A stretch of DNA of 64,000 nt from Octopus vulgaris (lineage: Eukaryota): assembly GCA_951406725.2 (NCBI GenBank), contig OX597821.1, positions 66,836,001 to 66,900,000 of the forward strand. Reading direction: 5' to 3'. The notes under the pieces are model-generated. The model had not been told where the DNA came from. It saw nothing but the letters and a program-made list of their open reading frames with translations, and made no database searches. Of the stretch, positions 4,290-55,265 are shown in pieces. A program made the position numbers and the translations under genes. Numbering within the stretch: the first letter of the stretch is position 1; every line of letters starts with the position of its first letter.

Positions 4290-4545
4290 AAAATTTAAAG
4301 GACTGACCACTAAAAGTGGACAGTCAATATGCTAGATATAGACGTGAAAATCGCTATATTCCACTAAGGATGTGTTCTCAAGAAAAAACTCAGTAAAAAA
4401 CCAAGGTGTAAAAATAAGCAAGACAAATGAAAATATACGAAATAAAAAACGATTACCTATGCTAATCAGTTTCACTTGTTAATATTCACGTATATGTATA
4501 CGCGAACATCCGCAAGATCATCAGCATAGTCTGTCGTTTACAAAT
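4290..4545 (-). mobile_element. Penelope-like pLTR fragment between (TA)n tracts
   Basis: Flanked by TA repeats and contains a hammerhead motif. Its first ~70 bp recur in reverse orientation at 5535-5612. Confidence 0.55.
4457..4529 (-). ncRNA. Hammerhead ribozyme-like motif (C3:G8 core, long stem II)
   Basis: Minus strand: CTATG-CTGATGA-T-CTTG[..ATGTTCGCGTATA CA TATACGTGAATAT..]CAAG-T-GAAA-CTGA-TT-AG-CATAG. Stem III is degenerate. Confidence 0.55.
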
Positions 4546-4779
4546 ATATATATATATATATATATGCCCATAACTATTTACTCACATTTACAGACACACA
4601 TCTAGGCGCGCACATTGTTTCATATACATTCATATACATGTATGTGTATATATACACATATACACCAACATACATGTAACTATACTTTCATAGAGATATC
4701 TATTCATAATCTGAACCGCATGGTGCCCGAATCCTCTAAGCTACACAGCTATTGAGAGGTTATATATATATATATATAT

Positions 4780-4930
4780 AACAAAGTTATTTTATTTAAC
4801 ACAGATAGGAATATAGGAAAAAATATAAGTTGAAAATGCACTGATAATAGTTAAAATATTTCATATTAATATATTTAAAGCTATAATAACCGGTTTCACA
4901 GTTTACACTGAATTTCAAATAGTTCAAGCA
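4780..4930 (-). mobile_element. Penelope-like pLTR fragment with degenerate hammerhead; second copy at 5633-5740
   Basis: ACAAAGTTATTTT...GAAAATGCACTGA...AACCGGTTTCA occurs twice. Minus strand 4881-4922 reads CTAT-TTGAAAT-TCAG TGTAAA CTGT-GAAA-CCGG-TT. Confidence 0.45.
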
Positions 4931-5503
4931 GAACTTTTTTTTTATTCTTTTTAGGCGCAAAATATACTAAGGCACGGTCGTAGCGAGAAACGTACTAAAG
5001 GTATCAAACTTAATCATGTGTTCATTCTCTACAAACACTTGACAGAAAGCATTCGGAGCATTGATACTGTGGACATATTCAGTGAACCGTATCAGCCTTA
5101 ACTGTGACTATCTTCTAGCAATCAAATCCTATTCAAAACAAATACTAATTTGAGACATTGAGCTTCCTATAAAAATAGGGTAATTTCAAACATATGTTGT
5201 CTATTGACTATTTTATGCATGCTAGCCACTGGCAGATGTCTTTAATTTCTCTACCCTATATATATATATATATATATATATTTATTTATATTATATTATA
5301 TTATATTTTACACACACACACACACACACACACATATATATATATATATATATATATATATATATATATATATATATATATATATATATATATATATATA
5401 TATATATATATATATTAAATAGGGGTAGAAATTGATATTAATCAGTTAAAACCAGTGTCCTAGCATATTTTTTAAAAATCCAAAGATTAAAAATTGTTTT
5501 ACA

Positions 5504-5612
5504 TACAAAATTTAGAGGACTGACCACTAGACACTGAAAATGGCGATTTTGACGTCTATATCTAGCATTTAGGCTGTCCATTTTTTTAGTGGTCAGTCCT
5601 CTAAATTTTGTA
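5504..5612. repeat. ~26-bp inverted repeat within a pLTR-like island
   Basis: TACAAAATTTAGAGGACTGACCACTA ... TAGTGGTCAGTCCTCTAAATTTTGTA. Same family as 4290-4360. Confidence 0.8.
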
Positions 5613-51487: not shown

Positions 51488-52004
51488 AATACCCTGATGC
51501 AGTACCAGGCAGTGGCTCTCATGGCTTCTGATCTTAACTGATTGGAAGTGTTATCGTGTACATTGTTTTGTCTTGGTATAAAAGACGGGCTACAGCAAAT
51601 ATTCTGCTCAATACCACATTTGCATGTCAGTCGTTTGATCTTAACAAGTTGAGCTTGCCCATTAGTAGCTGACGATATGTGCATCTCTGATCACGAGCAG
51701 AAGTAGTGGGCGAGCATCATAACCATGTGTTGAGAGGGATTTCGGGTTTGAATAATTCACCACTGGAAACATAGGTGTTTCGTTCAACATCCTTAAACAA
51801 CCCTTATTCAGGGACCTTTGGAACGGGATGGGTTACTCGTCCAGAAGAAAATTCTAACTGGGCCCCACCTGCAAGGTCATGTGCTGTTTATATTGATATG
51901 AGATTACCATTTCGCGCACATACGGTTGTGATGCATGTTCCTAGTGTACATTTATCAGACGGGTAACCATGATGGGTATACTGGGCTTCGTATATTTTAC
52001 CCCA
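51488..52004. mobile_element. Family R repeat in (AAT)n, longer 5' part
   Basis: Homologous to 30366-30735 over ~360 bp. AAT tracts on both sides. Confidence 0.8.
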
Positions 52005-55000
52005 ATAATAATAATAATAATAATAATAATAATAATGATAGCGAATAAATTAAAATAACAAAATAAGAGGATGTACATTAAAATGTACCCCTTATTTTTG
52101 AAATGAAACAAATCACAGTTTAGCTGTGAAAGAAGCTTAGCGGATCGAAACAATATTCTCATAGAAAGAATGTGGCCAACAAGCTGCTCATGCGATATCA
52201 ATACATAACAGTTCATGTTCCATGTATTCGTGCTTCGTACTTTTTTGTTGTACACGTTTAATGATATCCTGTGCCCACATATGCATATATATATATATAT
52301 ATATTATTCTACCATTAGTATTTGAGTACTCATTTTTCCACCTTGTTTCACATTTATGTGTTTACTCCGGTATATATATATATATATATATATATATATA
52401 TATATATATATATATATATATATATATGCATGGTGCGGAAAATATTCCAGGCAAATTATGTTGGATTCACCTTCAAGATATAACCAAGGTATGGGCCCTG
52501 TGCTATCCGCCCACAGCATAAGTCACACTCACATCACGTAACAACAATACAGCATAATTATCTTACCTCAGTTGGTTCTGCTCTCTTGAACATTACACCA
52601 AAACATATCATACGCAGAAACAGACCTCATAAAGTGCAATAAATCCTCTATGAACCTCCTACACCCGGATATGTCTCCGTAAAAAATAACTCTCTCTTTC
52701 AGTGGGCCATGTTGTCCAAATAGTGATTTGAATAATTTCACTAAGTGGTGCTATTTAGGCATGACCTGGGCCAATACTGGCCGAAACGTATCAAAGCACC
52801 AAAGTAGATATACAGGGTCGAGGCCTCTGTCTGAAACCATTGGAAGGATAACGATAATACACACACACACACACGCACACACACGCACACACACACACAC
52901 ATATATATATATAAATAAATATATATATATATATAGAGAGAGAGAGAGGAGAGAGTGAGATAGAGCGAGAGTCATTCAGACATAAATATATATATATATA
53001 CATATATATATATACATATAAATATACATGCGTACCTAAAAACCTAAATACATACATAGACAAACATACATACATACATACATACACACATGCGTGCATG
53101 CATACATACATGCATATATATATGCAAACATAGAACCATACATACATACATACATGCATGCATACACACATACATGCATACATACATACAGAACTTTCAA
53201 TGTTGCTCTTTTCGTTTAGTTATTCCTAAATTATATTCACAAACATTCAGATCATAGACATATCTCATTTAGCCGTTTTCTCCCCTCCTTTTTCTACACA
53301 AAATAAAATGGGAAAAATTTATAAAATTACAAATCGAAAGTATACGTATATATATGTATATATATGCATCTCTTTTCCTCAGAGAGAGAGACAGTGAGAA
53401 GAGAGAGAGAGAGAAATAGATATCATTTGAGCAAGTGTGAGGAAAAGGACAGAAAATAAAAATAGAAATTTCAAGTTGAACCTAAAAAAGGAAATAACCG
53501 TTTTTATTGAATAGTCTCTGAAACGATTGGGGACATTTACGATCTTCTGGTGAGCTAGAAAAATTATTTCTTGTTCACCTTCCTTATTTTCTTTCAAATA
53601 AAGACATCATTATTTTATAGGAGTTTTTTTTCGTTCGTTTTATTTCTGTCATTAAATCATTTCATTCTTATTTCGTTTAAACTTACACATACATACGCAG
53701 AGATTATTACACGCACATATATATACACGTGAGTGTGATTGTGTGTGTGTATTGCGGCCATCATTTTCGCATCCGTTTTAAAATTTCTGTATCGAAGTCG
53801 CTTTCGCAATCTTTTGTATAACTATTTTATATTTTATGTTCTTTAGATTCATGGTAATTTCAGTTGTTTATGTTATGCTTTGTATTAATATTTTTTTACA
53901 TTTCATTTTATCATTATTATTTAGAATTATTGTTGTTTACCACCTTGCTTTCAATTTTCCTTTTTTCCCCAGATCTTAAATGACATTTTTATTATTATTA
54001 TTATTATTATTATTATTATTATTATTATTATTATTATTATTATTATTATTATTATTATCATTATTGCTTTCATTATTCATATCAGTTCAAGGCTTGAAAC
54101 AGTAGGTTCAGGAAACTGTCTACTCTAAAAGAGAAAATGACGATATTTGAGGCAGCAAGGACAGAACACTATATTCAACTCTTTCGCCATTTGCGGTTTT
54201 GCTTTTACACACACACACGCACTCACACACACACACACACACACACACACACACACACACACACACACACACACACACACACATATATATATATATATAT
54301 ATATATATAAACATACGAGAATACGCGTATATATGTTTGTGCGTATATATCTGTGTGCATATATATGTGTATAGATAGATGGTTAGATAGAGAGATAGAT
54401 AGATAGATAGATAGATAGATAGATAGATAGATAGATAGATAGATAGATAGATAGATAAATAGATAGAAAGATAGAAAATGGATAAATAGATAGATAGATA
54501 GATAGATAGATAGATAGATAGATAGATAGATAGATAGATAGATAGATAGATAGATAGATACATATATACATAGATACATACATATGCACAGGCATTTTGG
54601 CTGCACACACAAAAGTAAAGATACAGAAGCTCTTTTAATATACGTGCATATATATATATATATATATATATATATATATATATATAACATGCGTATATAC
54701 TCCTGTATATGCGAAAATACGTAAATGCTGTCATAATTGAAAATGCAGACAGATAACTGCCCGTTTGTATTTCGCATAGTATATGTTCATTTAATATGAG
54801 CGTGGATATAACGGTATTTCTGTGCATCTATCTTTTTATAGTGTATATATGCGCACATGTATGCCTATGAGAGAATTTTTATATAATTGAAATGAAATTT
54901 AAATAAATCAATGAGTCTAAAGGAATTTCGTCTGTGTCTGCCGCCATTGTCATCCGTATTTAATCGTCTTTATCGCCTTCATCTTGCTCTTTTCACACTT

Positions 55001-55054
55001 TCGTTCCGTTTTTCTTTCTCTCCGGTGGTTTCTCTAACCACTTATATATATAGA

Positions 55055-55265
55055 TCGCCATGTTGATTCGCTAGCTTTTGCACGCATTATTTTTCTTCCT
55101 TGTTTCTCTCCGTGTTTCTTTTCTGTGTATCTTTCTGTTGAAGAGCGTAGGCTCGAAACGTAAAAGACTTGTTTTATTTATATTCCTGAGCGCCATACTA
55201 ATACAATTGTTTGTTTGTATTCCACCTGCCTTCGTCTTTTGTTTATTTTCATAAAGCTCTCCGTT
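55055..55265 (+). mobile_element. Repeat family A (pLTR-like) ending in (TA)n
   Basis: Homologous to 20348-20512 and 11745-11870. Confidence 0.75.
55130..55167 (+). ncRNA. Hammerhead-like motif with A6U core variant
   Basis: TCTTT-CTGTTGA-A-GAGC GTAG GCTC-GAAA-CG-TA-AAAGA. Confidence 0.6.

What the first reader, a model, noticed from the sequence alone, without database searches (positions are those of the whole stretch)
4457..55167. Cluster of unrelated hammerhead ribozymes whose cores covary at the 3:8 pair (C:G, U:A, G:C)
Seen: at least seven mutually non-alignable short islands share the layout stem I - core - stem II - GAAA - (mostly palindromic) stem III - UH - stem I'. Cores are CTGATGA (4457, 42564, 44830), TTGAAAA (20101, 24558 and its mirror), GTGAACA (19791) and CTGTnGA (20400, 55130). 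Most lie among (TA)n or other simple-repeat tracts and several carry inverted terminal duplications. Established: the hammerhead core C3-U4-G5-A6-N7-G8-A9 needs a C3:G8 Watson-Crick pair that tolerates compensatory swaps, and Penelope-like element (PLE) pLTRs carry minimal type-I hammerheads with palindromic stem III. Inference: this genome hosts a diverse radiation of microsatellite-associated PLE or retrozyme families, and the 3:8 covariation indicates selection for the catalytic fold. A CUGANGA-only search would miss many of them.
Basis: partly seen in the sequence, partly recalled or inferred. Interest (0 to 1): 0.85.

Follow-up and report, generated by a model that had tools for sequence, protein, structure and literature searches.

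The report
Transposon hammerheads using all four core-pairs
The islands are the ends of Penelope-like jumping genes carrying small hammerhead-type RNA folds, predicted to self-cut weakly, and across this animal genome one core base pair of the fold occurs in all four Watson-Crick forms, two of which (G-C and A-U) I could not find reported in nature.

Summary
Real. The islands are seven high-copy repeat families. Six sit 3' of Penelope-like element (PLE) RT/GIY-YIG coding sequence elsewhere in the genome; the seventh is a 538-nt tandem, retrozyme-like unit. A descriptor blind to positions 3 and 8, run on 1.2 Mb of unselected DNA, gave 23 strong hits against 1.2 per shuffle; 22 of 23 pair 3:8. 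All 13 multi-member clusters are Watson-Crick. PLE hammerheads, U3:A8 and the U·U stem-II closure are published, and this scan noted U:A once in another genome. Not found in the papers I could read: G3:C8 (one family, ≥6,905 copies, both pLTRs of a full-length PLE; its sister family has C3:G8), A3:U8 (≥389 copies, outside the window), and U6 (≥18,727 copies). Against strict catalytic selection: a successful sister family carries C9, two window copies are decayed, and G3:C8 copies pile up 22 nt upstream of the core with a likely cap-derived G, not at the cut site. Cleavage is untested, and the key 2017 variant paper was not available.

The parts
4457..4529 (-). F1 hammerhead, C3:G8, U·U closing stem II, long loop 2, 10-nt palindromic stem III in the family; this copy lacks U16.1/H17 (decayed). 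Lies in a piece (4258-4548) of a 538-nt tandem retrozyme-like unit
19650..19857 (-). F2 solo pLTR plus tail of a C-terminal-EN PLE; starts 22 nt 5' of the core behind an extra G
19791..19840 (-). F2 hammerhead, G3:C8 (core 19833-19827), 7-bp stem I, one base after A9, 5-bp stem II, palindromic 6-nt stem III, U17; predicted cut between 19798 and 19797
19897..19993 (+). Inverted, 5'-truncated second arm of the F2 insertion, ending at the short 3' end next to (TA)n
20101..20141 (-). F3 hammerhead, U3:A8, 4-bp stem II, ACCGGU stem III, A17; this copy has a broken 1.1:2.1 pair; family lies 3' of a Neptune-type EN fragment in L080
20400..20435 (+). F4 hammerhead, C3:G8 with U6, N7=G, ACGU stem III; pLTR of a Neptune-type PLE
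24558..24596 (+). F5 hammerhead, U3:A8, extra U before U3, 2-bp stem II, ACCGGU stem III, C17; pLTR of a Neptune-type PLE
24483..24521 (-). Mirror F5 hammerhead in the inverted arm (arms about 24380-24538 and 24540-24700)
42564..42608 (-). F6 canonical minimal PLE hammerhead, C3:G8, base after A9, G10.1:C11.1, ACGU stem III; PLE RT fragments upstream in L134 and L137
44829..44880 (+). F7 hammerhead, C3:G8, U·U closing stem II, 4-bp stem III hairpin with self-complementary centre; pLTR of a Hydra-type PLE; inverted truncated arm with tail at about 44736-44826
55130..55167 (+). Second F4 hammerhead (U6, N7=U, A17), another subfamily
11449..11506 (+).

Best explanation
These islands are the pseudo-LTR ends of several Penelope-like retrotransposon families, each carrying its own minimal type-I hammerhead fold whose 3:8 core pair is Watson-Crick in every multi-copy family and which likely cleaves only weakly, as a dimer or with help from the element's protein. 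Shown: the motifs flank or follow RT/GIY-YIG coding sequence on the sense strand; insertions are mostly short, sit at (TA)n, have two 3' end points (the tail) and often an inverted second arm; the 3:8 pair is C:G, U:A, G:C or A:U according to family. Inferred: selection acts on the source elements, where the pair swapped between related families (C:G to G:C between the F2 element and its sister; U:A versus A:U among Neptune-type elements). Inferred: reverse transcription starts inside the 5' end of capped, uncut RNA and runs to the cap, which gives the solo copies with an extra G; cleavage would instead serve to trim tandem read-through transcripts or decap the mRNA.
For: Full-length F2 element: 1025-aa ORF with YVDD, DKSG, CX3CxxC and a Pfam GIY-YIG hit (L341); L343 has two direct G3:C8 motifs 4,261 nt apart around the ORF. 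F5: 15 of 25 loci have Neptune-type coding sequence on the sense strand ending within 200 nt upstream (16 had some hit, one being another family). F4: L233 runs from RT-EN through the 3' UTR into the motif. F7: Hydra-type ORF in L347. Null test. Families: 13 of 13 clusters with >=2 members are Watson-Crick (7 C:G, 4 U:A, 1 G:C, 1 A:U; permutation p 1.9e-5 if independent, which they are not). Exact-pattern counts, first 100 listed: F2 6,905 with 95 G:C and no C:G; A:U family 389 with 98 A:U; F5 725 with U3 in 100, A8 in 93 and G8 in 7. Within families, variation falls where a hammerhead tolerates it: F2 in loop 2 (0.33-0.50), core <=0.13; F4 at N7 (0.58) and H17 (A/U/C, no G in 27). The sister of F2 (tree 100/99) has C3:G8 and a compensatory A:U for G:C in the homologous stem II. 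A G3:C8 double mutant partly rescues a PLE hammerhead in vitro (PMC11167929).
Against: No cleavage was measured. The sister family (3,714 exact copies, many long open ORFs) has C at A9 in 92 of the first 100 and a non-palindromic stem III. F4 has U6 in 94 of the first 100 of 18,727, and A6 changes lower activity (PMC3088659, PMC7151607). F5 and the A:U family have 2-bp stems II and fold no better than shuffles (z +0.9, +0.6). No clear pile-up of F2 5' ends at the predicted cut (19 of 68 scorable ends in the three compatible positions, against 13.6 if uniform; hand tally). In the Anolis PLE, hammerhead mutants do not affect insertion in vitro (PMC11167929). F1 has no ORF link; the F3 and F6 links rest on 1 and 2 sense-strand loci of 25.
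Confidence: 0.72

Rival explanations
1. The folds are hammerhead-derived but kept as a structure, for example a binding or positioning site for the PLE protein at the RNA 5' end; cleavage is dispensable and lost in several families.
For: C9 and U6 in very successful families; copies come from uncut RNA; hammerhead mutants insert normally in vitro, and Naiad PLEs thrive without hammerheads (PMC11167929; 10.1101/2021.04.23.441226).
Against: The 3:8 pair belongs to the active-site conformation (established knowledge) and is kept in 13 of 13 clusters; U4, G5 and GAAA are near-invariant and no G17 was seen among 27 F4 copies where that position was free to vary.
Confidence: 0.22
2. The variant cores are chance changes in dead relics, fixed by one burst of copying, and the 3:8 pairing is coincidence.
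For: G:C and A:U are each a single lineage; young copies look conserved everywhere, not only in the core.
Against: Both variant cores persist across subfamilies that differ in loop 2 and flanks and in contigs of runs coded as organisms A-D (G:C) and A, C, D (A:U), where the listed differences fall outside the core (38 and 27 lesser rows were not shown). Only pairing states are fixed in any family.
Confidence: 0.04
3. The fixed 5' end with an extra G reflects splicing to a tiny first exon at the pyrimidine-rich TAG just upstream of the hammerhead, not copying of the cap.
For: Both F2 and F7 start at T|AG behind a branch-point-like, pyrimidine-rich stretch; the Drosophila virilis Penelope intron ends at helix I (PMC4209133).
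Against: Only one added base is shared: among the 58 copies with G at -1, position -2 is A in 24, T in 27, C in 5 and G in 2 (hand tally); no matching donor exon was seen in the 1-kb upstream region.
Confidence: 0.15

Closest known systems
Minimal hammerheads in PLE pLTRs (Cervera & De la Pena 2014, PMC4209133)
   Same: Type-I layout, base after A9, palindromic stem III, place in both pLTRs on the ORF strand, many unrelated families per genome, opposite-strand pairs, U3:A8 (S. mansoni), U3:G8 (Saccoglossus row of Fig. S3), U·U stem-II closure (Hydra row).
   Different: None of the 56 rows of Fig. S3 has G3:C8, A3:U8, U6 or C9; no cephalopod row. The consensus drawings in Figs S2, S4 and S5 came through scrambled and could hold variants I could not read.
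Natural hammerhead core variants (Perreault et al. 2011, PMC3088659)
   Same: U3:A8 covariation, U10.1·U11.1, 2-bp stem II and a position-6 variant (A6C) occur in nature with low but real activity.
   Different: The passages read name only C:G to U:A at 3:8; purine-3 pairs are described elsewhere as lab mutants (PMC11167929, PMC3884650).
Small PLE-associated hammerhead variants that cleave as dimers (Luense, Weinberg, Breaker 2017, PMC5785218)
   Same: Short palindromic stem III, PLE association and dimer cleavage, as summarised in review PMC6765202.
   Different: Cannot say: the paper is not held; its large alignment may already contain G3:C8 or A3:U8.
Neptune, Nematis and Hydra clades of EN+ PLEs (Craig et al. 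2021, 10.1101/2021.04.23.441226)
   Same: C-terminal GIY-YIG, CX2-5CxxC linker (F2, F4, F5, A:U family), CxCX5C linker without CCHH (F7), (TA)n insertion, tail, inverted truncated copy.
   Different: Clades are assigned by motif only, with no reference tree. F2's ORF is only 21% identical to the 781-aa Neptune-type ORF; 'Nematis-like' is my recall, not a test.
Non-LTR retrozymes (PMC7229834; 10.64898/2026.07.22.740005)
   Same: F1 is a non-coding tandem unit with a type-I hammerhead and U·U closure (as in axolotl HHR_Amex2).
   Different: 538-nt unit, mostly dispersed partial copies (1 of 23 loci held two cores), minimal palindromic stem III; circular RNA not shown.

Membership tests
Type-I hammerhead ribozyme | Three-way junction with stems I and II around the core | tested here: met
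   Family copies; the F2 minimum-energy fold is stem I plus stem II with an open core. F5 has one extra U and a 2-bp stem II.
Type-I hammerhead ribozyme | U4 G5, G12 A13 A14, A15.1-U16.1, H17 | tested here: met
   Near-invariant in unselected copies of F2, F4, F6; required by the descriptor elsewhere, so partly circular there
Type-I hammerhead ribozyme | Watson-Crick pair at 3:8 | tested here: met
   13 of 13 clusters
Type-I hammerhead ribozyme | A6 and A9 | tested here: not met
   Not met in F4 (U6) or in the F2 sister family (C9); met in the other families. F4 is therefore filed as hammerhead-like, not as a proven member.
Type-I hammerhead ribozyme | Site-specific self-cleavage | not testable with these tools
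   No assay; only contigs, no raw RNA reads
EN+ Penelope-like element | ORF with RT and C-terminal GIY-YIG | tested here: met
   F2, F5 (43, 70), F4 (72), A:U family EN half (83), F7 (105); fragments only for F3 and F6 (70, 100)
EN+ Penelope-like element | Direct pLTRs with the hammerhead flanking the ORF | tested here: met
   Shown for F2 in L343; only the 3' pLTR was seen for the other families
EN+ Penelope-like element | Tail, inverted 5'-truncated arm, microsatellite target | tested here: met
   Inverted copy in 13/30 F2, 11/25 F5, 12/25 F6, 22/25 F7, 3/23 F1, 3/25 F3, 2/24 F4 loci; two 3' ends about 60 nt apart in F2
EN+ Penelope-like element | Clade placement on an RT tree with reference elements | not tested
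   No reference sequences held; motif assignment only
Non-LTR retrozyme (F1) | Non-coding tandem unit with one hammerhead per unit | tested here: met
   Cores 538 nt apart in L049; other copies run across the unit junction; six further upstream stretches showed no PLE ORF
Non-LTR retrozyme (F1) | Expressed as circular RNA | not testable with these tools
   No RNA data laid for F1

The most novel reading that the evidence does not exclude
One animal genome holds active natural hammerheads with all four Watson-Crick 3:8 pairs, including the first natural purine-3 cores (G3:C8 in thousands of copies, A3:U8 in hundreds), plus U6 and C9 cores. PLEs repeatedly tune their ribozyme down through core swaps so that capped, uncut RNA stays available as the reverse-transcription template, and the added G at solo-pLTR starts records this.
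Probability: 0.35. Interest if true: 0.72.

Novelty: new variant of a known kind. Interest (0 to 1): 0.55.

Why it matters
The 3:8 pair was established from a crystal structure and lab swap mutants; the natural evidence in the papers I could read stops at U:A. Two natural purine-3 cores, each with a related family in another state, complete the covariation and give a ready panel (C:G, U:A, U:G, G:C, A:U, U6, C9) for asking what PLE hammerheads do, which is still open. Search patterns fixed on CUGANGA miss two of the three commonest hammerhead families in the sampled DNA. The added G and the lack of ends at the cut site are genomic support for an in-vitro result that uncut RNA is the insertion template.

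Tried and rejected
Rfam scan: swamped by microsatellite matches to miRNA models, no hammerhead among the 150 rows shown. First descriptor (no base allowed after A9) missed every named island. The repeat finder returned only microsatellites and one transposon. No PLE ORF in the window itself. Pile-up of 5' ends at the F2 cut site: not found (32 of 100 listed rows dropped as indel or internal-deletion variants). Splice donor for a first exon: none seen. Direct pairs at L345 (F7) and L346 (A:U family) were genomic tandem duplications, not full elements. Downstream pattern for a full-length F7: 21 matches, nearly all ending in microsatellite. ORF link for F1: none in 23 loci or six upstream stretches. 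EN tree of seven rows resolved only F2 plus its sister; the relation of the U:A and A:U families stayed open (ORF identity 51-61%). Sequencing runs: no RNA holder listed, so nothing on expression. Literature searches found no natural G3:C8 or A3:U8 and no PLE cap-G report; PMC5785218 and PMC1986816 are not held.
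Full report
Setting. The window is G000:C8:66836001-66900000 in a 2.8-Gb assembly, very rich in microsatellites. The host is likely an octopus; this is inference, from the best named homologue of one element's protein being labelled Octopus vulgaris (57%). 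The window holds no PLE ORF.

Observation. Every named core is present. Searched against the genome, each island is a dispersed repeat, with 436 to 2,181 first-look candidates. Family copies repair the doubtful window copies: the 4457 copy lacks the two bases at U16.1/H17, and the 20101 copy has a substitution at 1.1. Only 20400 and 55130 align with each other, so there are seven families: F1 4524(-), F2 19833(-), F3 20135(-), F4 20404/55135(+), F5 24565(+) with its mirror, F6 42603(-), F7 44836(+).

Chance and covariation. I took 120 evenly spaced 10-kb stretches and scanned them with a descriptor that leaves N3, N6, N7 and N8 free. At score >=11 there were 23 hits against 1.2 per shuffle, and 22 of 23 were Watson-Crick at 3:8; at >=8, 38 of 53 against 17.4 hits per shuffle. 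Copies are not independent: all 8 G:C hits are F2. Clustering 310 hits from all 2.0 Mb held (part of it selected for these families) gave 13 clusters of two or more members, all Watson-Crick by majority: 7 C:G, 4 U:A, 1 G:C, 1 A:U. Some two-member clusters come from one locus, F5 fell outside the descriptor, and 68 singletons were left aside. The permutation value of 1.9e-5 overstates the case because families are related. Exact patterns: F2 6,905 matches, first 100 listed 95 G:C, 5 single changes, no C:G; A:U family 389, 98 of 100 A:U; F5 725, 93 U:A and 7 U:G; reversed-pattern controls 0. In unselected copies, F2 varies in loop 2 and at one stem-I base that keeps a G·U pair; F4 varies at N7 and H17.

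What they belong to. A PLE-like peptide next to one F2 copy led to full elements. L341 encodes 1,025 aa with YVDD, DKSG, CX3CxxC and a GIY-YIG hit. L343 has two direct G3:C8 motifs 4,261 nt apart around the ORF, whose likely start codon lies about 170 nt 3' of the core. F5 follows Neptune-type coding sequence in 15 of 25 loci; F6 follows RT fragments on the sense strand in 2 of 25, and F3 an EN fragment in 1 of 25. F4 ends a Neptune-type RT-EN element in L233. The A:U motif follows a Neptune-type EN in L218 and L201. F7 lies about 4 kb 3' of an ORF with YRDD, CxCX5C and no CCHH in L347, the Hydra signature of Craig et al.. F1 is a 538-nt unit, tandem in L049, with copies crossing the unit junction and no ORF found: retrozyme-like. 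The sister of F2 (1,312-aa ORF; 64.8% DNA identity over 1,657 nt; tree 100/99) has the homologous stem II with one compensatory pair and a C3:G8 core. So G3:C8 is a swap between homologous motifs.

How it likely works. Established: metazoan PLE hammerheads cleave poorly and as dimers (PMC4209133); in the Anolis element, cleavage needs the protein, a C3G/G8C double mutant partly rescues it, reverse transcription starts at two internal sites that define the tail, and uncut RNA is the main insertion substrate (PMC11167929). Seen here: the stem-III segments self-pair across two strands and, except F7, not within one; F2 copies have two 3' ends about 60 nt apart; 848 copies matched a start 22 nt 5' of G3, and of the first 100 listed, 58 have G, 24 C, 10 T and 8 A at -1, where the element itself has T (hand tally; the pattern excluded the element's own upstream context, which was found 11 times for one subfamily). 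Position -2 is not shared. Short F7 copies likewise often show G before their first base (not tallied). I infer copying of the cap of uncut RNA. Ends at the predicted cut are not clearly enriched: 19 of 68 scorable ends in three positions against 13.6 expected, 32 of 100 rows dropped. Cleavage, if it occurs, would then act on tandem read-through RNA or decap the message; that step is untested.

Results against. F4, with the largest exact count of the families I counted (18,727), has U6 in 94 of 100; the F2 sister has C9 in 92 of 100, A9 in 7 (3,714 exact). Both would be expected to weaken catalysis (established for A6: PMC3088659, PMC7151607; for A9 my own knowledge). F5 and the A:U family have 2-bp stems II and no folding signal. 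The 3:8 pair is thus better kept than A6 or A9, which fits an attenuated ribozyme or a fold kept partly for another job.

What is known. U3:A8 is published (PMC4209133, PMC3088659), as are U·U closure (PMC3088659, PMC7229834, Hydra row of Fig. S3) and PLE origin of retrozymes (10.64898/2026.07.22.740005). None of the 56 rows of Fig. S3 has G3:C8, A3:U8, U6 or C9, and searches found these only as lab mutants or not at all. What I saw: PMC4209133 parts 1-2 of 4 and supplement parts 1-2 of 3; 10.64898/2026.07.22.740005 parts 1-2 of 5; PMC11167929 passages and the second half of the main text; passages only of 10.1101/2021.04.23.441226, PMC6765202, PMC3088659, PMC7151607, PMC3884650, PMC7229834, PMC6155905, PMC10085705, PMC2920678 and PMC11014351. 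Not seen: Luense 2017, Przybilski & Hammann 2007, Arkhipova 2017, and the preprints' supplements; any of these could hold purine-3 cores.

Verdict. A real feature of a known kind, with core variants that I could not find in print. Interest 0.55.

Noticed in passing
L218 112-149 (-), L201, L240: A3:U8 hammerhead family (389 exact copies) at the 3' end of a Neptune-type PLE; a related copy with N7=C in L240.
   Followed up: yes
L344 about 5385-5440; truncated piece at window 1607-1739 (+): Young PLE family with a 1,312-aa ORF whose hammerhead has C at position 9 in most copies and a non-palindromic stem III.
   Followed up: partly
L211, L212 and other GIY-YIG loci L181-L210: Abundant Neptune-type PLE with a 781-aa RT-EN frame, an upstream overlapping ORF and a U3:A8 hammerhead about 900 nt after the stop.
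   Followed up: partly
L283 (-) 3247: U3:A8 motif with C6 in one copy; the two other cluster members have A6.
   Followed up: no
window 47472-47515 (+): Hammerhead-like motif with U6 and a C:A mismatch at 3:8; single, no family found in the DNA held.
   Followed up: partly
window 17994-19636: Tc1/mariner-like DNA transposon with 229-nt inverted repeats (92%) and a broken transposase; family named from recall of the motifs.
   Followed up: no
window 1872-2363, 24996-25373, 56105-56929, 59184-59795: Fragments that look like LINE reverse-transcriptase ends (by eye, not tested).
   Followed up: no
window 62644-63033: Tandem pair of a 198-nt unit (95%).
   Followed up: no
window 5340-5616 and 11741-11854: Further partial copies of F1 (inverted pair) and F4.
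   Followed up: no
L341-L343, L345, L347 (3' UTRs): PLE 3' UTRs of 1-4 kb that are largely (CATA)n or (TA/TG)n, so these elements may seed microsatellites as well as target them.
   Followed up: no
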